Positions 22,274-53,083 of a stretch of DNA of 64,000 nt are shown in pieces; the first letter of the stretch is position 1, and the number at the start of each line of letters is the position of its first letter. Under the pieces are notes generated by a model. The model had not been told where the DNA came from and searched no databases. It saw nothing but the letters and a program-made list of their open reading frames with translations. Origin of the DNA: Candidatus Portnoybacteria bacterium (GTDB lineage Bacteria; Patescibacteriota; Minisyncoccia; Portnoybacterales; GWB1-42-6). The translations under genes were made by a program, and so were the position numbers. Location: assembly GCA_028688325.1 (NCBI GenBank), contig JAQTYI010000002.1:9395-73394 (forward strand), given 5' to 3'.

Positions 22274-22819
22274 GTGGGCGGCAATACCTGGTACCAAGGC
22301 AAACACGAGCCGATTGTTAGCAAAGATTTATTTGACCTGGTGCAGGATAGAATAACCAGCCAGACATCAAGAGTTAATAATCAAGAATTCGCCTTTACCA
22401 AACTGATGAAGTGCGGACTTTGCGGCTCGGGCATTACGGCAGATGAAAAAATTAAGAAACAGCTAAACGGCAATATCCACCGCTATGTTTATTACGGCTG
22501 CACCCGATTCAACGATAAAGAATGCAAATGCGGCTATATCCGGGAAGACGACTTAATCAAGCAGCTTGAAAATCTGATAGACCAGATGTCCTTGGACGAG
22601 ATTGGCATTAAGCAAAAAATTAAAGCTGAAGTTGAGCGGCATAAAAAATTCCAAGCCGGGATGCTCGGAATAAAATCGATAATAAAAGTGGCTGATATAG
22701 ATATACGCAACTACGCCAAATACATTCTTAGAGACGGCACAAATCTTGAAAAAAGAGAGCTGATATCTTGTTTCAAAAGCAAGGTTGTAATAAAAAACAA
22801 ACTAGTTTCTTTAGAATAA
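22274..22819 (+). pseudogene. Large serine recombinase remnant (C-terminal zinc-ribbon/coiled-coil part only)
   Basis: Contains the CGLCGS…YYGC zinc ribbon and recombinase-domain residues, but lacks the N-terminal resolvase catalytic domain. Confidence 0.7.
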
Positions 22820-22821
22820 AC

Positions 22822-22849
22822 TAAAATCACCCGAATTCGGGTGATTTTA
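22822..22849. terminator. Bidirectional Rho-independent terminator between convergent genes
   Basis: Perfect 12-bp stem taaaatcacccg/cgggtgatttta with aatt loop. Confidence 0.75.
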
Positions 22850-22874
22850 GTTTATGACATCCAACACCTTTTAT

Positions 22875-23417
22875 CTACTCAGTCTCTAATAATATTTGAA
22901 CTAATGGATTTAAGGTTTTATATCCATGCTCCACAAAAAGACGATCTCTTCTGTCCTCTGGATTCTTTGCTCCATGAAAAAGATTATTACGAATTGAATA
23001 CCAAAACTCGACCATATTTTCCCAGTCTTCTAAATTATAAATATATCCTTTTACTTTATTCTTATCGTCTATAGCATGACCTCCAAGATCCGAATGAGAA
23101 CAATTCCACCATTTTATCTCTTCCACATTACCACTGTTACCGCTTACATTACCAAGTCGTGCAATTTTTAGTTCCTTTTTTATTTCTTCCCAAGAAAGAT
23201 GCAAATCTACATTATTTAGAACTTTATTTAAATATTTTATCTTGATACTTTCGTCCTGCTTTAAAAATTGGATAGCGGCTCTATCGTTTTGAGAATTGGT
23301 GAATTTTTTCTTTTTCAAAAAAGCTATGAACGCCAAATATTCAAAAACAAACTTAGAAAAGAAATCGTCATCTGAGGCCTTTACGTGCCAATTTATAATT
23401 AATTGATTATAGTTCAT
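22875..23417 (-). CDS. HEPN-domain protein (putative RNase effector/toxin)
   Basis: 180 aa, alpha-helical, with the Rx4H motif RNNLFHG near the C-terminus. It overlaps the upstream small ORF by 1 nt. Confidence 0.5.
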   Translation of the reverse strand: MNYNQLIINWHVKASDDDFFSKFVFEYLAFIAFLKKKKFTNSQNDRAAIQFLKQDESIKIKYLNKVLNNVDLHLSWEEIKKELKIARLGNVSGNSGNVEEIKWWNCSHSDLGGHAIDDKNKVKGYIYNLEDWENMVEFWYSIRNNLFHGAKNPEDRRDRLFVEHGYKTLNPLVQILLETE

Positions 23418-23418
23418 A

Positions 23419-23649
23419 TTAAGTTTTTAATTTCCAACGATAGGTTCCTGAGTTTTTTATCAGCCCTCTTTTACAGGGTTTTCCATAAAAGAAGTACTGT
23501 CCAAAAGCATTGCCAAATGGCCAATTTTTAATCTCTATTTTCTCCACTACAGCGTAGTGTTTAGCTTCGTTCCAAGAATCCAATATAACAATAAATGAAA
23601 TTTTTTCTCCGTTTTCGCGCCATAATTCAAAGATATTCTTTTTATCCAT
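23419..23649 (-). CDS. Small hypothetical protein (possible HEPN partner/antitoxin)
   Basis: 76-aa ORF immediately upstream of, and overlapping, the HEPN gene. Confidence 0.35.
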   Translation of the reverse strand: MDKKNIFELWRENGEKISFIVILDSWNEAKHYAVVEKIEIKNWPFGNAFGQYFFYGKPCKRGLIKNSGTYRWKLKT

Positions 23650-23711
23650 TATTTTTTAACATTTACTTCGGTTGTTATAAACATATAAATACTAAAAATC
23701 TATTTAAGGCC

Positions 23712-25460
23712 CTAAAATCTAAACCCTAACAGACCACCATTTTCTTTAGCGTCTGTAAAGATAATCCTTATAGCCTTTTTAAATTCAACCCCAAATTCTT
23801 CGCTAAATTCTGAATAAGGAACATCGTCAGAGTTTAATGTGCAAATATACTGGGTCTTCGTTTCGCTGGCTATCTTTGCTGCAGACTCCAAGGCTTTTGC
23901 TGTTTGCCTTTCGTCAACACCATCAAAAATAGTGCTATCATGGATTAAGAATCTGGGACTCGGCTTCTTCTGTCTAAATTCTAAAACAGTAATATCATAA
24001 GTAAAAACTTTCATATAACTAATCCCTTGACTTCCCGCCCTCAATATCTCTACATTAAATTTATAGCCGGCATTAGTTATCGAGATCAAGAAATTACCTG
24101 GCTGAGAATATAAAAACTCTGAATTTTTATTAAATAATTTTATAATTTTTTCAATCTGGTCCTCTCTTTCTTCTTTATCTTGTCTAGCTTTTTTAATTAA
24201 GTCTTCTTTTTTAATTTTAATATTGCTAACGCCTTCTTCAATTTTTTTTATATCTCTGACTCTGTTATTTTTTTCCTCCAAAGACTGTCTTATCACTGAG
24301 AGGTGATTTTGTAATTTTGTATATTCTTCTAAGGCGCCATGGGTCTGCAAAATCATTAATAACTCAGCTCGCTTTGCGGATAATTCCTCTGTCTTCACTT
24401 TTTGCTCAGCCATTTCTCGTTGTATTCTTTGAACCTCTGATAATAGATAATCTTTCCTATTCTTTATAACTTTAATATGGAAATTTAGAACATCTTCTAC
24501 TCGCTTCTTTATTGCATCCGAAAATACAAACCTAGCTTCCGCATAAAGTTGTTCGACCTTTTGCAAGGAAATGTCTTTTTCTTCAATAAAACTCTCTTGG
24601 TATTTATCTAAAATATTTTTATTAATCGCAGAAGCATTAATGACATTATGGATTTGCTCTGTTAAAAGATCGGCTTCTTGCTGAATTTTATAATACTGTG
24701 GATGAACATTAAATGAATTGAGCTCTTCCTCATTCGCTTCAACCTCACTCAATAAACGAACTTTTTCTGCTTCTAGCTCGCTCAAAGAGCCCACCAAGCT
24801 ATCAAGCAATCCCAGCCCTAATGCTTTTTTTAAATTTTCTATTATACCCAATTCATCCTTCAATACCTGGAACTGACTAGCATACTCATCATTCATACCC
24901 AACAAAAAAGAATTATTTACTTGAACATCCCATTCTTTTTGCTGCGGATAATGTCTAAAGGGATCCTGAAAGCCGCCTAAACCTCTTCTGACTGCATAGG
25001 ATATCAGACTTCTAAATGTTGGCGAATATTTCCGCTCTTCAATTACCGGAAGACCATACATAAAAAAACCTAAGACTATTGTCCAGTCCTTAATAGGCAA
25101 AGTGCGTTTTCCGTCTCTTATCCCTACCTCTGGTTCTATGGGCCAACCAGAAAAATTACCCTCCAGCGTTACCCTCGAAAATTCTTTCGTATTTCTAGAA
25201 ACCGTTATAATTTTCCCATCAAGCTCAAGATCCAAAATAAAAGTCCATCCTTCAAGTTCTTTTCTACGAACACCAACATTTGGACTCGTACTTGAGCCAA
25301 GACAAAAATGTATGATTTCAATTAGAAAGCTTTTACCTAAACCATTTCTAGAATCTTTATCAGAGGAGTCGTTAGTACGCTCAGCGAGCACGACATTAAA
25401 ACCAGGGGAAAAATCAACTCGTTTGAATAAAGGATTTGTACTCCTAACCGATTTGATCAT
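23712..25460 (-). CDS. ABC/SMC-like coiled-coil ATPase (Septu PtuA / Lamassu LmuB / ABC-3C-like)
   Basis: N-terminal P-loop with insert (FNVVLAE-x12-NGLGKS). ~350 aa of coiled coil. C-terminal signature-like RAGSQGIS and Walker B/D-loop PRFLIHDSTIFDGVDE. Confidence 0.6.
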   Translation of the reverse strand: MIKSVRSTNPLFKRVDFSPGFNVVLAERTNDSSDKDSRNGLGKSFLIEIIHFCLGSSTSPNVGVRRKELEGWTFILDLELDGKIITVSRNTKEFSRVTLEGNFSGWPIEPEVGIRDGKRTLPIKDWTIVLGFFMYGLPVIEERKYSPTFRSLISYAVRRGLGGFQDPFRHYPQQKEWDVQVNNSFLLGMNDEYASQFQVLKDELGIIENLKKALGLGLLDSLVGSLSELEAEKVRLLSEVEANEEELNSFNVHPQYYKIQQEADLLTEQIHNVINASAINKNILDKYQESFIEEKDISLQKVEQLYAEARFVFSDAIKKRVEDVLNFHIKVIKNRKDYLLSEVQRIQREMAEQKVKTEELSAKRAELLMILQTHGALEEYTKLQNHLSVIRQSLEEKNNRVRDIKKIEEGVSNIKIKKEDLIKKARQDKEEREDQIEKIIKLFNKNSEFLYSQPGNFLISITNAGYKFNVEILRAGSQGISYMKVFTYDITVLEFRQKKPSPRFLIHDSTIFDGVDERQTAKALESAAKIASETKTQYICTLNSDDVPYSEFSEEFGVEFKKAIRIIFTDAKENGGLLGFRF

Positions 25461-25680
25461 GCTTTAATTTTATTAGATTGTTTTCAATTGTTATCAAGTC
25501 CAAAAGATGAAGTAAATCAAGAGTTAAAACAAATTTCTCAAAATTATTTACTTCTGGAATTTTATTATTTTTTTCCCACAAGGAAGAAACGGAACACGGT
25601 CTTCTAATTTCACCAAGCAAAACAGAGCCGACCCCAATAAGAGAATTAGATAATTTTATATTTTTATCAGGTAAAATCAT
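25444..25680 (-). CDS. Small hypothetical protein (middle component of ATPase operon)
   Basis: 78 aa. It overlaps both neighbours (17 nt and 4 nt). Confidence 0.4.
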   Translation of the reverse strand: MILPDKNIKLSNSLIGVGSVLLGEIRRPCSVSSLWEKNNKIPEVNNFEKFVLTLDLLHLLDLITIENNLIKLKHDQIG

Positions 25681-26408
25681 TTTTCAAATATATCACACTG
25701 CTCAAAAAAATAAATTAAAACAGATAAGCCAGCTGCTTGCTTTAAAATGTCTGCTGAATTAGATGAAGCGAAATCGGAAAGAATGTAAAATAGGCCGTCA
25801 CTCGAATTTCCTTTTTCTCTAAGCTCGCGATATTTTTCTATAAAACCGCGCTTCAGCCTTTCGGCAAAATCAGTGTCGGGGTGAGAATTTAAATATCTTT
25901 TAACTAAAGTTACCTTACTTAGTCCCATTTTTATTCGTTCCACAACATCCAGAGACAGGTCATTCTTTTTTATCTTTTCTTGCGGGGTTATTAAATCTAG
26001 TGTGCTTACTTCAAAATCATATTGCTTAACCAAATATTTTATCGTATCCTCTAACTCGCTAAAAGTAATCTGGGGCAAATTCATAATCAATTTCTTCTTT
26101 ACCCAGTCTTCGTGGTCTAGCTTTATCTTTTTTAATATATCTACCGTGTAAGCAATAGGATCTTTATCAATTTCTGTATGACAAGAAGAACACAACAAAA
26201 TATGATTGGCATAACAAGCCCTCTCTTTTTCTGTCATAGATTTATTGTATCTTGCAGAACCAGGCTCCTTGCCCTCAATGTGTGCGTCCTCTCCTTTGTG
26301 CTGGACATGACTTTTTACGCTCGTATGTGTAACTTGCCCTTTACACTTATTGCATATGCCAGCACTTCTCCCCCAAAGAATAATTTTTTCTGCCGGAGAA
26401 ATTTTCAT
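25677..26408 (-). CDS. HNH nuclease domain protein
   Basis: N-terminal CNKCKG…HIEGKEP…YANHILLCSSCH HNH zinc-finger nuclease motif, plus a ~150-aa helical C-terminal domain. Confidence 0.6.
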   Translation of the reverse strand: MKISPAEKIILWGRSAGICNKCKGQVTHTSVKSHVQHKGEDAHIEGKEPGSARYNKSMTEKERACYANHILLCSSCHTEIDKDPIAYTVDILKKIKLDHEDWVKKKLIMNLPQITFSELEDTIKYLVKQYDFEVSTLDLITPQEKIKKNDLSLDVVERIKMGLSKVTLVKRYLNSHPDTDFAERLKRGFIEKYRELREKGNSSDGLFYILSDFASSNSADILKQAAGLSVLIYFFEQCDIFEK

Positions 26409-26738
26409 AATCTTAATTATTTATAATATTAACACTTTCTAAAAAAACAGAACAGATAGAAACTGTTAATATTCCATCAAAAATGGCCTTTGAAAATACA
26501 AATAATGAAAAGAGTCGAATAACTTTTCTATTAATTAAGTTGCACTCAAAAACGGCGCAATCTAAATTGCGCCGTTTAAAAGCGATCTTTGACCCAAGCT
26601 AAATTTTTGGACATTTATTGTCATTTAATTTAACCCCCCTTCTGAATCGCCTCTGACGATACAGAATCTAAGAATCAAATTCTTGACATAACCCAGAAAT
26701 AAATCTGTTAAACCGTCTCGGTCGGTCTCACATGAGTG

Positions 26739-26809
26739 TTGGGGAGGAGGGATTCGAACCCCCGATGACGGATTCAGAGTCCGTTGCCTTACCGCTTGGC
26801 TACTCCCCA
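26739..26809 (-). tRNA. tRNA-Gln (anticodon CUG)
   Basis: 7-bp acceptor TGGGGAG/CTCCCCA with U1 as in E. coli tRNA-Gln. D-arm GCCAAGCGGTAAGGC. Anticodon stem ACGGA/TCCGT with loop CTCTGAA. T-arm GGGGGTTCGAATCCCTC. CCA is not encoded. Confidence 0.85.
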
Positions 26810-29028: not shown

Positions 29029-31479
29029 TTATGATTTATATCTGCTGTTTATTTCTCCCTCCACCAGATGCTTGTCCCGCCCGTATTTCAGCCGCGACAG
29101 GTCCTTCAGGGCGCCGATTATCTCTTTGTTTTCCTGCGGCGGGCGGTCAAAGACCATATTGAAGGGCTTGGAGGTCAGGTTGTTTATTAGAAGCTTGGCA
29201 TAAGCGCTGAAATTGTCCTGATTTATCAGGTCGTTCTGATCGAAAATAGGCGTGAACTGTTTGACCAAAAATTCCGCGTCTTCCGCGCCCACGCGCATAG
29301 CCAGCATTGAGCCCACATTGCCAAACACCGCGTCTCTTATCTTTTCCGGAATTTGTTTAATATATTGGTGCGTTATCACCAGGCACAATTTATATTTCCT
29401 GGCTTCCGACAATATAGTGGAAATGCTGTCGGTGGTGAAATTTTGGAATTCGTCGATATAAAGATAAAAATCGGAACGCAGCTCTTCGGCCGTATCCACG
29501 CGAGAAAAAGACGCCATCATCAATTTGCCTACAATTATCAACCCTAAAAGATAAGCGTTCAAATCGCCGATGCGGCCCTTGCTCAAATTCACTATCAGAA
29601 TTTTTTTGTTATCCATTATGTCGCGGAAATTGATGGCTGATTTGCTCTGCCCGATTATCGGCCGCATAAAATCATTGGCGATAAAGGTGTTGAATTTGGA
29701 AGTGATATACGGCACAACATTGGCCAGCGCCGCCTCGCCTCCGGCTTTTTCCGCCTCTTTCACCCAGAAATCTTTCACCACAACATTCTGGCATTTATCC
29801 AGCAATCGTTTGCGATATGCCGCGTCCGCCAACACCCTTGGCACCTCCATCAGCGTGGCACCTTCATTGGGATCATCCATCAAAAGCTGCAGAGCATTGC
29901 GGGTGTATTGTTCAAAGATCGGCCCGCCGGTGGTTTTTAAGTCGTATAATTTATCAAAAATGCTTATCAGCTCGTTGACGATGAAAGTTTTCTGCTCGGG
30001 GTATTTCGGATCGTATTCCAGCATATTGATTCCCAAGGGGCGCTCAATATCGGCCGGGTTAAAATAGACAACATCTTCCGCGCGATTTGGCGGCACACAA
30101 CCCAAAACATAATCGGCAAAATCGCCATGCGGGTCGATGACGGCCAGCCCCTCCTCTTTGACATCCTGCGCCAGCATTCCCTGCATGGCTGAGGTTTTGC
30201 CGGTACCCGTCTGGCCCACGATATAAAGGTGCCGGCGCCTGTCGTCTCGCTGCATACGCACCACCGTTTCCACGCCCCGGAAAAAATTCTTGCCCAAAAT
30301 AAGGCCTTGTGTTGGCATATTGGGAGGAGGAGCGGCCTGTTTTGATTTTATAAATTTGACTTTGGGCGTTTCCACTTCCGTGGTCGGAAAATGGAAAATG
30401 GAAGCCAACTCTTCAGTGCTTAAAATAATTTTTCGGCTCGAGTCAAAAATACGGAAAGAAAAATCATAAAGCAGCTGGCGCAATCTCCGGCCAGTGCCGG
30501 CCCGCGATGATTTCAACAGATTCAAATTAAGCCCGTTAAATTGCGAAAAAGCGCTTTCCATCTGCAGCAAAATCCGGTCCGCTTGTTCGGGCATTTTGGC
30601 CGAAACGATCATATTGATATTCGCTTCATAGGCCACTTTGCTGGCCTTGCTTTCCAATGCTTTTATGACTTCCAAGCTCAGAGGCGTAACCGAAGGCGGG
30701 CCGGGAGACGGCGCTTCTTTTTTGGAGAACAAAGTGGAGCCGGTCAAAAGGTCGATTAAAATAACCAGCCAATTTTTATCCACCCGTATTTTTGACAGTT
30801 CATATCTTTTGCCCTTCTGCATCTCCTGGGCGATCTTCAAGGAATTTTTGCGCCAGCGCTTGGCCTTGCTCGGCCGGATGGCAATCTGAATGGCCGCACC
30901 TTCGCCTTCCGCGTCCAACTTGCTCAGCGAGTTGACTATTTCATTTAACGGGTCGGTTTCCAGCCCCTGATAGGTCTTAAAAGGCAGGGAAATTCCTCTG
31001 CCCGCAAAAAGATACGCACCCGTCCCCGCGCCCTGAGGATTGAAGATGTTGTAATCGTCTATCGGCCGCACATCTGCCAACGGGAAAAATCCGTGGATCT
31101 GTTTTTCCATTACTTCCTTCAGGCGCCTGGGACAAGCGACATAAAAAGCTATCTCTTCGCCCACATTCTGCACCGCCATTTCAAAGGTGAAAACCGGCTG
31201 ACCGAAAAGAAACGCGCTGCTCCCTTTTTCTTTCAGGTTGCTCAAGCTGGCATAAAACTGTTCCATCACCGCCACCAGCTCCTTGAACGGCTTTTTATTT
31301 TTATCATCCGCGGGGAGCTTGGGCACAGTCACCAGAAACAGCGACATATTCAACGCCCGGGTTATCCGGCCCTTGCCGCGAACCAGATTTATCAAAAAAT
31401 ATATACCCAAAAAAACCACGATAAAAAATAATACCATGGTTAAGGGAAACAAGATTAAATTAAGGTCGAATGTTTGCAC
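29029..31479 (-). CDS. Type IV secretion coupling-protein-like ATPase (VirD4/TraG/TraD family)
   Basis: Two N-terminal TM helices. Walker A GQTGTGKTS. 816 aa with TraG/VirD4-like layout. Confidence 0.65.
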   Translation of the reverse strand: MQTFDLNLILFPLTMVLFFIVVFLGIYFLINLVRGKGRITRALNMSLFLVTVPKLPADDKNKKPFKELVAVMEQFYASLSNLKEKGSSAFLFGQPVFTFEMAVQNVGEEIAFYVACPRRLKEVMEKQIHGFFPLADVRPIDDYNIFNPQGAGTGAYLFAGRGISLPFKTYQGLETDPLNEIVNSLSKLDAEGEGAAIQIAIRPSKAKRWRKNSLKIAQEMQKGKRYELSKIRVDKNWLVILIDLLTGSTLFSKKEAPSPGPPSVTPLSLEVIKALESKASKVAYEANINMIVSAKMPEQADRILLQMESAFSQFNGLNLNLLKSSRAGTGRRLRQLLYDFSFRIFDSSRKIILSTEELASIFHFPTTEVETPKVKFIKSKQAAPPPNMPTQGLILGKNFFRGVETVVRMQRDDRRRHLYIVGQTGTGKTSAMQGMLAQDVKEEGLAVIDPHGDFADYVLGCVPPNRAEDVVYFNPADIERPLGINMLEYDPKYPEQKTFIVNELISIFDKLYDLKTTGGPIFEQYTRNALQLLMDDPNEGATLMEVPRVLADAAYRKRLLDKCQNVVVKDFWVKEAEKAGGEAALANVVPYITSKFNTFIANDFMRPIIGQSKSAINFRDIMDNKKILIVNLSKGRIGDLNAYLLGLIIVGKLMMASFSRVDTAEELRSDFYLYIDEFQNFTTDSISTILSEARKYKLCLVITHQYIKQIPEKIRDAVFGNVGSMLAMRVGAEDAEFLVKQFTPIFDQNDLINQDNFSAYAKLLINNLTSKPFNMVFDRPPQENKEIIGALKDLSRLKYGRDKHLVEGEINSRYKS

Positions 31480-49394: not shown

Positions 49395-49976
49395 CTATAT
49401 AGTCATGATCTCTTTCTCTTTTCCCCCGCCCATCTCTTCAATCTTCTTGTTATATTCATCTATCATTTTCTGCAATTCTTCCTTGCCGCGGAATTTATCA
49501 TCCTCGCGGATCGCTCCGGCGCGCTCTCCGTCCTGCAGTTCTTTCCAGACCTTCTCGCGGGCGTTGCGCACTGCCTGCTTGGCGGTCTCCATTTTTTGCT
49601 TCAGATTGCGCACCAATTCCTTGCGTGTCTCTTCGGTCAGCTGAGGAATAGCCACTCTGATGATATCGCCGGTACTGGAAACGGAAAGCCCCGAGCGGGA
49701 ACCGCTGATGGCTTTTTCAATCTCTTTGTTGATAGTCTTATCCCATGGCTGAACCGTCAAAAGGCGCGGCTCGGGCGCGTTGATAACTGCCAATTCGCGC
49801 AATTGCGAACGGCTGCCGTAGCATTCAACTTCCACCGTCTCAATTAAAGCCGGTGTGGCTCGGCCCGTGCGCAAAGTGCCCATTTCTTCCTTGAAATGGA
49901 CCATTGTTTTTTCGAGTTCCGGTTTTATTCTGTTGATGATTTCTTTATACATTTTTTGCTTTTGAGACATATTCAA
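49395..49976 (-). CDS. frr: Ribosome recycling factor
   Basis: Full-length RRF collinearity. Confidence 0.95.
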   Translation of the reverse strand: MNMSQKQKMYKEIINRIKPELEKTMVHFKEEMGTLRTGRATPALIETVEVECYGSRSQLRELAVINAPEPRLLTVQPWDKTINKEIEKAISGSRSGLSVSSTGDIIRVAIPQLTEETRKELVRNLKQKMETAKQAVRNAREKVWKELQDGERAGAIREDDKFRGKEELQKMIDEYNKKIEEMGGGKEKEIMTI

Positions 49977-50712
49977 TTATTTTATCCCAATCCAAATTGC
50001 TTTTTGAATAAAATAATTCGACTATATCTTCTGTCATCTCGTTTATTTTTTTAATATATAAATCCTTAAATGTCTCGTCTCGTTTTTTTGCCTCTTTATC
50101 AAGAGGTTGAACTATTTTTTTATATAATTCGTTATCGCCAGAAATTAACTCCCAAAATTTTTGACCGCAAATTTTATAATAACTAAGGGCAGGATCTTTA
50201 CTAACCTTATGAGGACTGTTGTCCCTTCCATACATACATCCATTAACGGCAATAATTGTTTTTTTGTCTGCGCCCACACGAATCTCTTTTTTTGCTAATT
50301 TAAAATTTCTTCTCATTATATTAACTTGGTCGCTATTGCCCCAATTTGGCCCAGATTTAATACCAACAATATAAAATTTATTTTCTCTTTCAAAAATTAA
50401 ATCAATACTTTTATATTTTCCTTCTTCTGCTTTTTTACCATTAAATATCTGGCGGCAAATATGGATCGCAAGATTTTCCATAAGGTCTCCGAATATGGTT
50501 TCTTCCTGAGATGACAAAAAGGCATCCAGAATAGCTTTTGCCAAATCACCCGCGGTCTCAATATTTTTTGCTTTAAAAAGATAGGGATTTTTTCTCGCAA
50601 ATATACTTGATAAATTAGCTGATTCCAGACGATCTAGCCTGATTTTATAAAATGGCCGTATAATATCAAGGGCAATAAAAGAATTTAATTTATTGTAATC
50701 AATTTTTTTCAT
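49945..50712 (-). CDS. Putative type II restriction endonuclease
   Basis: 255-aa AT-rich gene overlapping by 4 nt the stop of the adjacent DNA methyltransferase. Confidence 0.45.
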   Translation of the reverse strand: MKKIDYNKLNSFIALDIIRPFYKIRLDRLESANLSSIFARKNPYLFKAKNIETAGDLAKAILDAFLSSQEETIFGDLMENLAIHICRQIFNGKKAEEGKYKSIDLIFERENKFYIVGIKSGPNWGNSDQVNIMRRNFKLAKKEIRVGADKKTIIAVNGCMYGRDNSPHKVSKDPALSYYKICGQKFWELISGDNELYKKIVQPLDKEAKKRDETFKDLYIKKINEMTEDIVELFYSKSNLDWDKIIEYVSKAKNV

Positions 50713-51602
50713 AATTTATTTCTGTTTAATTCATTAAGGTTTTGAATTGCAAGATTATAATATTCCTCTTTAATTTCAATCCCGATTGAATTGCGGTCTA
50801 ATTGAAAAGCGGCAACTGATGTTGTGCCAGAGCCCAAAAAAGGGTCCAATACTGTATCACCCGGTTTAGTAAATAGTTTAATAAACCAGGATGGGAGTTC
50901 TCTTGGAAATACTGCGCTATGCTCTTTATTTGATGTTTCGGTAGCCATAGTTAAAACATTTGTAGGATATGCCATATCTCTGCCTACCCATTTTGAAACA
51001 TTTTTACCAAAACCGCTTCCCACCCTTGAATTATCTCGTTTTTTATCTGTCTCGCTAAGATTTTTAAGCCGAGTTTTAGCCCAGTCGCCCATAGGAACCA
51101 TCACTCCGTCTTGATACATGTTAAAATCTTTTTGTTTATTAAATTGCAATAAACGCTCCCAGGCATCACGAAATCTATTTGGCCACTTTCCTGGAAAACA
51201 ATTTTTTTTATGCCATATAAATTCTTCCGTCCAAAGCCAACCTTGCTTCCTCATTTCCATTATCAATTCCATTACATATGTATGCCTTTCGCTTTCAACA
51301 ACTTTTTCCTTAATATTTAAAATAAAAGTCCCCTTTGGGCTTAAAACGCGTAAAAATTCCTCTGTTTTTGGTAGAAACCATTTTACATAATCATCAGGAT
51401 TGATACCCCCGTAGGTGCCTTTTCTTTGGTCGGCATACGGTGGAGATGTAATTATTAAATCAATACTACCGTCAGAAAAACTTTTCAATGTTTTATAACA
51501 ATCACCAAGCACTATATCAGCCCTAATTTTTTCTTTAAGGTTTTGGGTAAATAAATTTAATTTTTCTACGGTTTTAATTGTCATAGTCATTTCCTTAATC
51601 AA
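50709..51602 (-). CDS. DNA methyltransferase (beta-class N4-cytosine/N6-adenine, SPPY)
   Basis: Motif IV DLIITSPPYA in the N-terminus and motif I DPFLGSGTT in the C-terminus (circularly permuted beta-class arrangement). Confidence 0.8.
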   Translation of the reverse strand: MIKEMTMTIKTVEKLNLFTQNLKEKIRADIVLGDCYKTLKSFSDGSIDLIITSPPYADQRKGTYGGINPDDYVKWFLPKTEEFLRVLSPKGTFILNIKEKVVESERHTYVMELIMEMRKQGWLWTEEFIWHKKNCFPGKWPNRFRDAWERLLQFNKQKDFNMYQDGVMVPMGDWAKTRLKNLSETDKKRDNSRVGSGFGKNVSKWVGRDMAYPTNVLTMATETSNKEHSAVFPRELPSWFIKLFTKPGDTVLDPFLGSGTTSVAAFQLDRNSIGIEIKEEYYNLAIQNLNELNRNKL

Positions 51603-52720: not shown

Positions 52721-53083
52721 TTAGCTGTTAGGAAATTCTAACTTTTTAATTATCGTTGACAGCATTTTTTGAACCTCATCAAATAAAATATCGGCTCTTG
52801 AAAAATCTAATTTTATGAATAAATCTTTAGCTATAATAATTTGTGTTTCCAGCTCTGCCACAGAACCGTCTGTTATTCTTAAAAATTGCACAAAATCTTT
52901 TTTTGTTTTTCTCTTCTTACCTTCTGCTATGTTTGACGGGATAGAAACGGCTGCTCGCCTCATCTGACTTGTTAAACCATATAACTCTGAACTGGGAAAA
53001 AGCCCGGTAATTTTATAGGTTTCTTTTACTAATCCTATCGCTTTCTGCCAAACTATCAGTTGTTTAAACGATTCGATATACAT
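52721..53083 (-). CDS. Four-helix-bundle protein, 23S-rRNA-IVS protein family (Avd paralog)
   Basis: 120 aa with the TIGR02436-like pattern (SQMRRAAVSIPSNIAEG … FLRITDGSVAELETQIIIAKDL). Flanked by 17-bp inverted repeats. Confidence 0.75.
   Translation of the reverse strand: MYIESFKQLIVWQKAIGLVKETYKITGLFPSSELYGLTSQMRRAAVSIPSNIAEGKKRKTKKDFVQFLRITDGSVAELETQIIIAKDLFIKLDFSRADILFDEVQKMLSTIIKKLEFPNS

What the first reader, a model, noticed from the sequence alone, without database searches (positions are those of the whole stretch)
23712..25460. ABC-type ATPase with an insertion-containing P-loop
The Walker A region reads FNVVLAERTNDSSDKDSRNGLGKS. A 12-residue insert separates the conserved hydrophobic strand from the GxGKS, whereas SMC/RecF/RecN-type ABC ATPases have a contiguous GxNGxGKS(T). 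The C-terminus keeps a signature-like RAGSQGIS and a Walker B/D-loop LIHDSTIFDGVDE. About 350 residues of heptad-rich coiled coil lie between them. This is atypical for housekeeping SMC-family proteins. It may mark a distinct defense-ATPase clade.
Basis: seen in the sequence. Interest (0 to 1): 0.55.

Follow-up and report, generated by a model that had tools for sequence, protein, structure and literature searches.

The report
Lamassu-type defence ATPase, extended P-loop
The gene encodes the ATPase of an already catalogued three-gene anti-phage system (ABC-3C/Lamassu type with an HNH nuclease), and the odd 11-residue stretch in its ATP-binding loop is real but is a normal hallmark of that whole protein family, not a peculiarity of this gene.

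Summary
ORF 23712-25460(-) encodes a 582-aa SMC/Rad50-like ABC ATPase. Its Walker A reads FNVVLA-ERTNDSSDKDS-RNGLGKS, which is 11 residues longer than E. coli RecF (SPGFNFLVG-ANGSGKT) between identical flanks. It is not an ORF-calling or assembly artefact.

The extension is not private to this gene. Every relative examined has it: 120 close homologues, 136 scorable of 143 full-length 50%-identity representatives, and 22 plasmid or viral-contig members at 20-45% identity. The Asn-to-Lys distance is 21 in 129 of 136 representatives and is never shorter.

The family is known. The ATPase matches Pfam DUF2326 and is a full-length match to PADLOC PDC-M68B. RefSeq names relatives 'ABC-three component system protein'. 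The gene is the last of a translationally coupled operon: HNH-CTD10 effector (25677-26408), Middle Component 6 (25444-25680), then the ATPase. That triad is conserved in about 77 of 80 related loci across bacteria and archaea.

Best fold matches are B. subtilis YydD and Lamassu LmuB. The effector head matches the CBASS Cap5 HNH domain. The operon lies in a low-GC island next to tRNA-Gln in a Candidatus Portnoybacteria (CPR) genome.

Verdict: a new member of a known kind, of low to moderate interest. The role of the P-loop extension remains open.

The parts
25677..26408 (-). Effector (LmuA-like), 243 aa: an N-terminal Cap5-like HNH nuclease (aa ~1-107) followed by the helical ABC-3C C-terminal domain 10 (aa ~115-243).
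   Evidence: Pfam CTD10 scores 39.4 bits against a cut-off of 28.1. PADLOC gives PDC-M68A at E 2.6e-65 and SAVED_HNH / CBASS endonuclease effectors at E 1e-22 to 1e-19 over aa 2-106. H43, N68 and H77 are invariant in 25 homologues. The AF2 model has pLDDT 79.8. Foldseek best hits are the CBASS Cap5 HNH domain, 9dih_A and 8fmf_A, rmsd 2.7 A, 26% identity.
25444..25680 (-). Middle component (LmuC-like), 78 aa, ABC-3C Middle Component 6. Its start overlaps the effector stop by 4 nt (ATGA).
   Evidence: Pfam MC6 at E 1.2e-15, 57.7 bits against a cut-off of 27.2. An MC6 homologue lies directly upstream of the ATPase in 78 of 80 related genomic loci. The overlap was read.
23712..25460 (-). SMC/Rad50-like ABC ATPase (LmuB-like, DUF2326 type), 582 aa. 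N-head is aa 1-190, coiled coil aa 191-450, C-head aa 451-582. Its start overlaps the MC6 stop by 17 nt.
   Evidence: Pfam DUF2326 at E 2e-36 and PADLOC PDC-M68B at E 1e-182 over the full length. The AF2 model has pLDDT 85.7 and pTM 0.71. Foldseek hits: YydD 9a6c_A at E 2e-27, Lamassu LmuB 9hqx_B at E 1e-13, then Smc, Rad50, SbcC and JetC.
25329..25400 (-). Walker A region, aa 21-44: FNVVLA | ERTNDSSDKDS | RNGLGKS.
   Evidence: G42 and K43 are present in 143 of 143 representatives and N39 in 142 of 143. Position 37 is Ser in 98 and Thr in 45.
25350..25382 (-). The 11-residue P-loop extension, aa 27-37 (ERTNDSSDKDS). It lies between core strand 21-27 and the phosphate-binding turn. The model's block for residues 31-40 has mean pLDDT 56.
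   Evidence: The Asn-to-Lys distance is 21 in 129 of 136 representatives, 23-28 in the other 7, and 21-25 in distant plasmid and viral members, against 10 in RecF.
24111..24890 (-). Antiparallel coiled-coil arm, aa 191-450, with helix breaks around aa 293-314. There is no CxxC zinc hook.
   Evidence: DSSP on the AF2 model. CxxC occurs in 0 of 143 representatives, and the query has only C53 and C540.
24018..24041 (-). Signature-like motif RAGSQGIS, aa 474-481.
   Evidence: S477 is present in 137 of 143 representatives and G479 in 140 of 143.
23904..23951 (-). Deviant Walker B and D-loop, FLIHDSTIFDGVDERQ, aa 504-519. H507-D508-S509 has Ser where the catalytic Glu normally sits.
   Evidence: H507 and D508 are present in 143 of 143, S509 in 139, D516 in 141, R518 in 141 and Q519 in 143.
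26738..26809 (-). tRNA-Gln(CTG), flanking the upstream edge of the low-GC island. This is context, not part of the system.
   Evidence: ARAGORN. The GC dip is 0.33-0.37 against 0.44-0.50 for neighbouring stretches.
22274..22819 (+). C-terminal remnant of a large serine recombinase at the other edge of the island. This is context and probably a decayed integrase.
   Evidence: Pfam Zn_ribbon_recom at E 1.4e-9 and only the tail end of the Recombinase domain. NCBIfam CcrB and XisF hits start at profile position ~256-260.

Best explanation
The ORF is the ATPase of a three-gene ABC-3C / short type II Lamassu-like defence operon: an HNH-CTD10 effector, then Middle Component 6, then a DUF2326 ATPase. 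The operon sits on a small horizontally acquired island in a Candidatus Portnoybacteria genome.

Shown here: the family assignment of all three proteins; the translationally coupled operon; conservation of the triad across phyla; the SMC/Rad50/LmuB-like fold of the ATPase; the Cap5-like HNH fold of the effector with an intact H-N-H catalytic core; and the clade-wide Walker A extension.

Inferred by analogy with solved Lamassu complexes (bioRxiv 10.1101/2025.03.14.643221, 10.1101/2025.04.02.646746, 10.1101/2025.06.23.660979): an ATPase dimer, together with the middle component, holds one effector by its C-terminal domain on the coiled-coil arm, which keeps the nuclease monomeric and inactive. 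When the heads, helped by the middle component, recognise foreign DNA structures such as ends, hairpins or replication intermediates, ATP-dependent head engagement releases the effector. The effector then oligomerises into an active non-specific DNase, as the Cap5 HNH does when it tetramerises. The result is abortive infection or plasmid loss.

The 11-residue segment is a shared derived extension of the P-loop in the DUF2326 clade. The clade also has H-D-S in place of the catalytic Glu of Walker B and an invariant Asn (N543) in the QYICTLNSD motif of the C-head, which I read as the H-loop position; that placement is my inference and I did not test it. Together these features suggest a slow nucleotide-dependent switch rather than a motor. 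My hypothesis is that the extension tunes nucleotide binding or head engagement. That role is untested.
For: Family and operon. RefSeq product names and the identical HNH-MC6-DUF2326 layout in Agrobacterium vitis.

Triad conservation in 80 genomic loci (MC6 in 78, CTD10 in 77, HNH head in 56). Effector-head swapping with CTD10 retained.

Fold: for the ATPase and for the effector. Catalytic residues of the HNH. ATPase motif conservation (K43, D508, S477, G479, D516, Q519 invariant or nearly so).

The extension is universal. Canonical comparators.

Low-GC island next to a tRNA gene with a recombinase remnant.

Lamassu mechanism and equivalence with ABC-3C. HNH as a short-Lamassu effector. A Cap5-like HNH clade that includes ABC-3C effectors and is predicted to act as oligomers.
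Against: No experimental test of this subtype was found; PADLOC lists it only as a candidate (PDC-M68).

Sequence similarity to the PADLOC LmuB models is weak (E 1e-7 to 1e-13). No solved structure is reachable by sequence, even with a profile.

The helical CTD10 has no structural match to solved LmuA tails, so the docking geometry is assumed.

There is no zinc hook (0 of 143), so arm dimerisation must differ from the Salmonella and Vibrio LmuB proteins.

The extension is modelled with low confidence (pLDDT 56). Its sequence conservation is only average for the protein (35th percentile of 11-residue windows), so a specific function for it is not demonstrated.
Confidence: 0.85

Rival explanations
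1. It is a housekeeping SMC/RecN/RecF/SbcC-type chromosome-maintenance or repair ATPase that happens to have an aberrant P-loop.
For: The fold is shared with Smc, Rad50 and SbcC heads. The motif SPGFN before the strand is identical to E. coli RecF.
Against: The best family matches are DUF2326 and PDC-M68B. The gene is translationally coupled to an HNH effector and MC6, and that triad is conserved in about 77 of 80 loci. It lies in a low-GC island. Its distribution is patchy across phyla and archaea at 42-55% identity, and it also occurs on plasmids and viral contigs. There is no hinge and no zinc hook.
Confidence: 0.02
2. The ATPase is a catalytically dead scaffold. The extension and the H-D-S Walker B would have abolished nucleotide turnover, and the protein would only tether the effector, with activation independent of ATP.
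For: There is no catalytic Glu (S509 in 139 of 143). An Asn sits at what I take to be the H-loop position. The first Walker A Gly is replaced by Ser or Thr. In vitro nuclease activity of Salmonella LmuACB did not need ATP.
Against: G42, K43, S/T44, D508, S477, G479, D516 and Q519 are invariant or nearly so across 143 diverged representatives, which argues for selection on nucleotide binding and head engagement. LmuB proteins with a deviant Walker B still hydrolyse ATP slowly and need the Walker A Lys for defence.
Confidence: 0.1
3. The operon serves the mobile island itself, through addiction or competition with other mobile elements such as plasmid elimination like DdmABC, rather than protecting the host against phages.
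For: It is on an island with a recombinase remnant beside a tRNA gene. Relatives are frequent on conjugative and mobilisable plasmids and occur on viral or proviral contigs. Vibrio Lamassu (DdmABC) eliminates plasmids.
Against: This is not exclusive of defence, since characterised Lamassu systems do both. The recombinase is truncated and no att repeat was found, so the island is probably no longer mobile.
Confidence: 0.15
4. The 'insert' is an artefact of ORF calling, a frameshift or assembly.
For: None found.
Against: The identical protein appears in an independent assembly with 0 mismatches over 3,968 bp. The segment is present, in frame, in all homologues examined.
Confidence: 0.01

Closest known systems
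DUF2326-type ATPases of ABC-three-component (ABC-3C) systems; PADLOC candidate PDC-M68 (A = effector, B = ATPase); founding member B. subtilis YydD
   Same: Full-length match to PDC-M68B (E 1e-182) and to Pfam PF10088. The effector-MC6-ATPase operon is the same, and the HNH-MC6-DUF2326 layout is identical in Agrobacterium vitis. The P-loop extension, the H-D-S Walker B and the absence of a zinc hook are shared. The best structural match is the YydD-YydB integrative model 9a6c (E 2e-27, TM 0.60).
   Different: Nothing essential differs. It is a diverged member: the best database relative of the ATPase is 59% identical. The host is a CPR bacterium. By its PDB name YydD pairs with YydB; from memory, YydB is a phosphoesterase rather than an HNH nuclease.
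Lamassu type II (LmuA-LmuC-LmuB; DdmABC of V. cholerae; Salmonella enterica LmuACB, PDB 9hqx/9hqu)
   Same: Three-gene order of effector, small middle component and SMC/Rad50-like ATPase. The effector is modular, with an enzymatic head and a docking C-terminal domain. LmuB is short (~600 aa) and has a deviant Walker B lacking the catalytic Glu. LmuB chains are the best experimentally solved fold matches (E 1e-13 to 1e-12). The literature treats ABC-3C and Lamassu as one superfamily and lists HNH among short-Lamassu effectors.
   Different: Where they align, the DUF2326 N-terminal spans are 8-17 residues longer than the LmuB profile spans, which suggests those LmuB models lack most of the extension; I could not align them directly. 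Here the first Walker A position is S/T-x4-GK[ST], whereas LmuB is described as a prototypical G-x4-GK[ST]. There is no zinc hook, although the Salmonella system needs one. The effector is a Cap5-like HNH with CTD10, not Cap4 with CTD7 or CTD12. The middle component is MC6 (78 aa), not MC3.
Rad50/SbcC, RecF, RecN and SMC head domains
   Same: The ABC ATPase head is split by an antiparallel coiled coil. The motif order is the same: Walker A, coiled coil, signature, Walker B, D-loop. The pre-strand motif SPGFN is identical to RecF.
   Different: The canonical proteins have the strand contiguous with G-x-N/T-G-x-GK[ST], with 10 residues from Asn to Lys in RecF, and, from established knowledge, a catalytic Glu after Walker B. 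Here the distance is 21 and the motif is H-D-S. There is no hinge and no zinc hook, and the genomic context is defence.
CBASS Cap5 (SAVED-HNH effector)
   Same: The effector's HNH head superimposes on the Cap5 HNH domain (rmsd 2.7 A over ~105 columns, 26-27% identity) and matches the PADLOC SAVED_HNH models (E 1e-22).
   Different: There is no SAVED sensor domain. The regulatory half is the helical ABC-3C CTD10, so control should come from sequestration on the ATPase complex rather than from a cyclic nucleotide.

Membership tests
ABC-3C system (Krishnan et al. 2020 definition as implemented in Pfam and RefSeq) | An ABC ATPase of the SMC/Rad50-like class with a coiled-coil insertion, of the DUF2326 type | tested here: met
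   PF10088 scores 125 bits against a cut-off of 28.7. The AF2 model combined with Foldseek gives YydD, LmuB, Smc and Rad50.
ABC-3C system (Krishnan et al. 2020 definition as implemented in Pfam and RefSeq) | A small 'middle component' gene between the effector and the ATPase | tested here: met
   PF20293 MC6 scores 57.7 bits against a cut-off of 27.2. The gene lies between the other two with overlapping stops and starts. It is conserved in 78 of 80 loci.
ABC-3C system (Krishnan et al. 2020 definition as implemented in Pfam and RefSeq) | An effector with a variable enzymatic N-terminal head and an ABC-3C-specific C-terminal domain | tested here: met
   PF20275 CTD10 scores 39.4 bits against a cut-off of 28.1. 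The HNH head matches PADLOC models and Cap5 by fold. Head swapping with CTD10 retained is seen in relatives.
PADLOC PDC-M68 | Co-located PDC-M68A and PDC-M68B genes | tested here: met
   PDC-M68A at E 2.6e-65 and PDC-M68B at E 9.7e-183, both full length.
Lamassu (LmuACB) | LmuB: an SMC-like ATPase recognised by LmuB models or structures | tested here: inconclusive
   The fold matches Salmonella and Bacillus LmuB (E 1e-13 and 5e-10). PADLOC LmuB HMMs match only weakly and partially (E 1.5e-11, aa 13-155). There is no PDB sequence hit.
Lamassu (LmuACB) | A deviant Walker B lacking the catalytic Glu (hhhhD[Q/S/T/E] in short LmuB) | tested here: met
   LIHD-S, with S509 in 139 of 143 representatives.
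Lamassu (LmuACB) | A prototypical Walker A, G-x4-GK[S/T] | tested here: not met
   The first position is Ser or Thr (98 and 45 of 143), and an 11-residue extension separates the strand from the loop. GK[ST] itself is intact.
Lamassu (LmuACB) | A CxxC zinc hook at the coiled-coil apex (variable: zero, one or two copies in short LmuB) | tested here: not met
   Present in 0 of 143 representatives. The literature accepts hook-less short LmuB clades, so this is not disqualifying.
Lamassu (LmuACB) | An LmuA1:LmuB2:LmuC1 sequestration complex, DNA-end sensing, and effector release with oligomerisation | not testable with these tools
   This needs biochemistry or multimer modelling. It is inferred.
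Lamassu (LmuACB) | Anti-phage or anti-plasmid activity | not testable with these tools
   No experimental report on the HNH-MC6-DUF2326 subtype was found in the held library.
Housekeeping SMC / RecN / RecF | A contiguous strand followed by G-x-N/T-G-x-GK[ST], with hinge or repair context | tested here: not met

The most novel reading that the evidence does not exclude
The DUF2326 branch of the Lamassu/ABC-3C superfamily may use a mechanistically distinct nucleotide switch. Four clade-wide features point that way: a fixed-length 11-residue extension inserted into the Walker A, H-D-S in place of the catalytic Glu of Walker B, an invariant Asn at what I take to be the H-loop position, and no zinc hook. 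None of these features is represented in any experimentally solved structure, and none of the Lamassu papers I could read mentions the extension. The extension could gate ATP binding or head engagement in response to the middle component or to DNA. If so, the rules for effector release would differ from those worked out for the Vibrio, Salmonella and Bacillus Lamassu systems.
Probability: 0.2. Interest if true: 0.45.

Novelty: new member of a known kind. Interest (0 to 1): 0.22.

Why it matters
The finding mainly serves as a correct annotation. A gene deposited as hypothetical (the adjacent effector is PHT44_02395) belongs to an HNH-type ABC-3C/Lamassu-like defence operon. Together with a type II restriction-modification pair 25 kb away, it shows that a small-genome CPR bacterium carries at least two defence islands within 64 kb.

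The more general point concerns the DUF2326 branch. It has at least 2,152 representative clusters at 50% identity and occurs in many bacterial phyla and in archaea. It has a non-canonical ATP site and no experimental structure or functional test that I could find. Whether its P-loop extension changes how ATP controls effector release is a concrete question that could be tested.

Tried and rejected
1. I searched the PDB by sequence with the query, a 44-sequence profile and two distant DUF2326 members. Only coiled-coil noise came back, so I could not align the Walker A directly with a solved LmuB. I used profile-span differences and published Lys numbering instead (K37, K40 and K42, against K43 here). 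This evidence is indirect.

2. The Krishnan et al. 2020 paper that defined ABC-3C (PMC7544218) is not held, so I cannot say whether the extension was already described there.

3. I looked for a tRNA-derived att repeat marking the island's far boundary and found none.

4. Pfam CTD10 gave a sub-threshold hit on the ATPase arm (aa 295-386), and many homologues carry the same precomputed hit. hhalign between the effector CTD10 and the ATPase arm gave a probability of 1% or less, so I rejected this as helical compositional similarity.

5. I tested whether orf76 and orf180, downstream of the operon, belong to the system. They occur in 0 of 80 related loci and have no family hits, so they are not part of it.

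6. My first impression was that the extension is exceptionally conserved in sequence. The entropy analysis shows average conservation (35th percentile of 11-residue windows). It is the presence and length of the extension that are fixed.
Full report
**1. The observation.**
The ORF listing finds a 582-aa ORF at 23712..25460 on the minus strand. The peptide FNVVLAERTNDSSDKDSRNGLGKS is aa 21-44 (nt 25329-25400). RAGSQGIS is aa 474-481. FLIHDSTIFDGVDERQ is aa 504-519.

For a verified canonical comparator I fetched E. coli K-12 recF, recN and sbcC from the annotated genome and translated them. RecF reads SPGFNFLVG-ANGSGKT, with 10 residues from the conserved Asn to the Walker A Lys. RecN (GMTVITGETGAGKS) and SbcC (GLFAITGPTGAGKT) are also contiguous. 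The query reads SPGFNVVLA-ERTNDSSDKDS-RNGLGKS, with 21 residues from Asn to Lys. So there are 11 extra residues (nt 25350-25382) between flanks that match RecF almost residue for residue.

The AF2 model has mean pLDDT 85.7 and pTM 0.71. It places a core strand at 21-27, a loop at 28-36, a short turn at 37-40 and the P-loop helix from 43. The block for residues 31-40 has the lowest confidence in the N-terminal head (pLDDT 56). The helical arm spans about aa 191-450, roughly 260 residues rather than 350.

**2. It is not an artefact and not private to this gene.**
The N-terminus M-I-[KR]-x-[VI]-R is conserved in homologues, so the start codon is right. An independent assembly (Logan, SRR22315507) is identical to window 22826-26793 with 0 mismatches in 3,968 bp and encodes the same 582-aa protein.

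The word-indexed search found 1,371 proteins at E <= 1e-5. All of the best 120 (49-59% identity) carry the segment, with consensus fNvvLAeRt.eS.dKDSRNGlGK[ST].

The exhaustive search of 50%-identity representatives found 2,152 clusters at E <= 1e-3 and 616 at E <= 1e-30. In 143 full-length representatives no sequence has a deletion in aa 26-44. The Asn-to-Lys distance is 21 in 129 of 136 scorable sequences and 23-28 in the other seven. It is never shorter.

Five plasmid-borne members at 20-40% identity and 17 members on viral or proviral contigs at 21-45% identity all have distances of 21-25. Examples are NIILARITMPENKKKTSHSLGKT and NIVLGEVKHPKDRKKDSHNLGKT.

Within the extension, S32, K/R35, D36 and S/T37 are well conserved, but the mean column entropy (2.08 bits) is close to the protein average (2.25), at the 35th percentile of 11-residue windows. 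So presence and length are fixed, while the sequence is only moderately conserved.

**3. What the gene is.**
Pfam gives DUF2326 (PF10088, E 2e-36) on aa 447-582. PADLOC gives a full-length match to PDC-M68B (E 9.7e-183) and only weak N-terminal matches to LmuB (E 1.5e-11). NCBIfam has nothing meaningful.

The two genes upstream on the same strand are an ABC-3C Middle Component 6 (78 aa; PF20293, 57.7 bits against a cut-off of 27.2) and a 243-aa protein with ABC-3C C-terminal domain 10 (PF20275, 39.4 bits against 28.1). The N-terminal 106 residues of the 243-aa protein match the CBASS SAVED-HNH and endonuclease effector models (E 1e-22), and the whole protein matches PDC-M68A (E 2.6e-65). The three genes overlap by 4 nt and 17 nt, which indicates translational coupling.

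RefSeq already names plasmid homologues 'ABC-three component system protein' and 'ABC-three component system middle component 6'. Agrobacterium vitis has the identical HNH-MC6-DUF2326 layout.

**4. Conserved context.**
A scan of one genome per GTDB species found 248 relatives. I examined the best 80 loci, at 42-55% identity. They come from Acidobacteriota, Nitrospirota, Chloroflexota, Cyanobacteria, Planctomycetota, Omnitrophota, Paceibacteria and others, and from archaea including Methanosarcinaceae, Methanoperedens, Thermococci, Woesearchaeota and Heimdallarchaeota.

MC6 lies directly upstream in 78 of 80 loci, and the other two are contigs that end at the ATPase. CTD10 is present in 77 of 80 and the HNH head in 56 of 80. 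Most of the remainder, mainly cyanobacteria, keep CTD10 but have a ~70-residue charged helical N-terminus or another domain in place of the nuclease. That is the modular head swapping described for ABC-3C/Lamassu effectors. The two small ORFs downstream in the window (orf76 and orf180) recur in none of the 80 loci, so they are not part of the system.

**5. Folds.**
Foldseek of the ATPase model against the PDB gives, in order:
- the B. subtilis YydD-YydB integrative model 9a6c_A (E 1.9e-27, TM 0.60);
- Salmonella Lamassu LmuB 9hqx and 9hqu (E 1e-13 to 1e-12);
- a Pyrococcus Smc head, Rad50, Bacillus LmuAB-DNA 9ux7 (E 5e-10), Smc5/6, JetC and SbcC.

Sequence searches of the PDB reach none of these, even with profiles.

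The effector model (pLDDT 79.8) matches the HNH domain of CBASS Cap5 (9dih_A and 8fmf_A, rmsd 2.7 A over ~105 columns, 26-27% identity). H43, N68 and H77 are invariant in 25 homologues. The helical CTD10 half has no PDB match.

**6. ATP-site anatomy of the clade.**
- G42 and K43 are present in 143 of 143 representatives, and position 44 is S or T.
- The position of the first Walker A Gly is Ser (98) or Thr (45).
- Walker B is H507-D508 (143 of 143) followed by S509 (139 of 143), where ABC ATPases normally have the catalytic Glu.
- In the D-loop, D516 is present in 141, R518 in 141 and Q519 in 143.
- The signature has S477 (137) and G479 (140).
- N543 is invariant (143 of 143) in the QYICTLNSD motif. 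I take this to be the H-loop position, which I infer from motif order and did not test.
- No CxxC zinc hook occurs in the arm of any of the 143.

Strong conservation of the nucleotide-binding and head-engagement residues argues for a working nucleotide switch. The missing catalytic Glu matches the 'hhhhD[Q/S/T/E]' Walker B reported for short LmuB, which supports slow hydrolysis.

**7. Relation to Lamassu.**
The literature equates ABC-3C with type II Lamassu (PMC10586767; bioRxiv 10.1101/2025.06.23.660979; 10.1101/2025.03.14.643221). It lists HNH among LmuA heads and specifically for short Lamassu (10.1101/2025.04.02.646746).

The solved complexes show an LmuB dimer holding one LmuA, with or without one LmuC, in a nuclease-sequestration state. 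DNA ends are sensed, ATP-dependent head engagement follows, and LmuA is released and tetramerises into the active nuclease. The SPARHA paper places ABC-3C HNH effectors in the Cap5-like HNH clade and predicts that they are activated by oligomerisation (PMC12738770). I therefore infer the same logic here. These steps are inferred, not shown.

Differences from characterised LmuB proteins:
- PADLOC LmuB profiles match DUF2326 proteins only weakly (E 1e-7 to 1e-13).
- Where the N-terminal heads align, the DUF2326 span is 8-17 residues longer than the profile span, for example 2-94 against 5-82 and 6-112 against 3-92.
- LmuB is described as having a prototypical Gx4GK[S/T], with the Lys at K37 (Bacillus), K40 (Vibrio and Salmonella) or K42 (E. 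coli lipase type), against K43 here.

This suggests, but does not prove, that the full extension is specific to the DUF2326 branch. None of the papers I could read mentions it. The defining Krishnan et al. 2020 paper is not held.

**8. Genomic setting.**
The operon sits in a GC trough of 0.33-0.37, against 0.44-0.50 for neighbouring stretches, spanning about 22.2-26.7 kb. The trough is bounded by tRNA-Gln (26738-26809) and by the C-terminal remnant of a large serine recombinase (22274-22819). No att-like repeat was found.

The effector is 100% identical to a hypothetical protein (PHT44_02395) of a Candidatus Portnoybacteria MAG on a 788,852-bp contig. That lineage belongs to the Patescibacteria/Parcubacteria (CPR) group.

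**9. Verdict.**
The locus is a new, diverged member (59% identity to the nearest database relative of the ATPase) of the HNH-MC6-DUF2326 subtype of ABC-3C/Lamassu-like systems. What remains open is what the fixed-length P-loop extension does. No experimental structure or functional test of this branch was found.

Noticed in passing
window 49945-51602 (-): A second low-GC patch (GC 0.36-0.40) encodes a type II restriction-modification pair. The 297-aa protein is an N6/N4 DNA methyltransferase (PF01555, E 2.5e-44, motif TSPPY). The overlapping 255-aa protein is an EcoO109I-like restriction endonuclease (PF14511, E 1.4e-71). So there are two defence islands within 64 kb of a small CPR genome.
   Followed up: partly
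window 22875-23417 (-) and 23419-23649 (-): Two ORFs (180 aa and 76 aa) lie directly downstream of the operon on the same strand. The 180-aa protein has an RNNLFH (Rx4H, HEPN-like) motif. Neither has a Pfam, NCBIfam, PADLOC or plasmid tblastn hit, and the only PHROG hit is a marginal one for orf180 (phrog_5111, E 0.0069). Neither accompanies relatives of the system (0 of 80 loci), but both are present in the independent assembly. They may be an unrelated small toxin or defence gene pair. Their function is unresolved.
   Followed up: partly
window 22274-22855: A truncated large serine recombinase: only the zinc-ribbon and C-terminal part is present and the catalytic N-terminal domain is missing. 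It is followed immediately by a perfect 20+20-nt palindrome (22816-22855). The independent Logan contig ends at 22826 inside this palindrome and at 26793 inside tRNA-Gln. These ends are probably assembly break points rather than element ends.
   Followed up: partly
L024, L037-L039, L043, L044, L048, L052-L054, L057, L062, L067-L069, L077 (the gene upstream of MC6): In these relatives, most of them cyanobacterial, the CTD10 protein lacks any nuclease head. Where I read the ORF, it starts instead with a ~70-residue highly charged helical segment (for example MDLHQQRKQDLKEHIDKDYILQKELEDELRL...). This may be an adaptor that recruits an effector in trans. It was not analysed further.
   Followed up: no
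window 23712-25460: The word-indexed protein search did not return the query's own sequence; the best hit was 59% identical. Yet the same 582-aa product is called on a Logan contig and the neighbouring effector is found at 100% identity. This looks like a database or prefilter quirk rather than biology.
   Followed up: partly
window 29029-31479 (-) and 52721-53083 (-): An 816-aa protein resembles a TraD/VirD4/HerA-like coupling ATPase (TrwB_AAD_bind, DUF87, TraG-D_C). A 120-aa protein is a 23S rRNA-intervening-sequence / bAvd-like four-helix-bundle protein. Neither was pursued.
   Followed up: no
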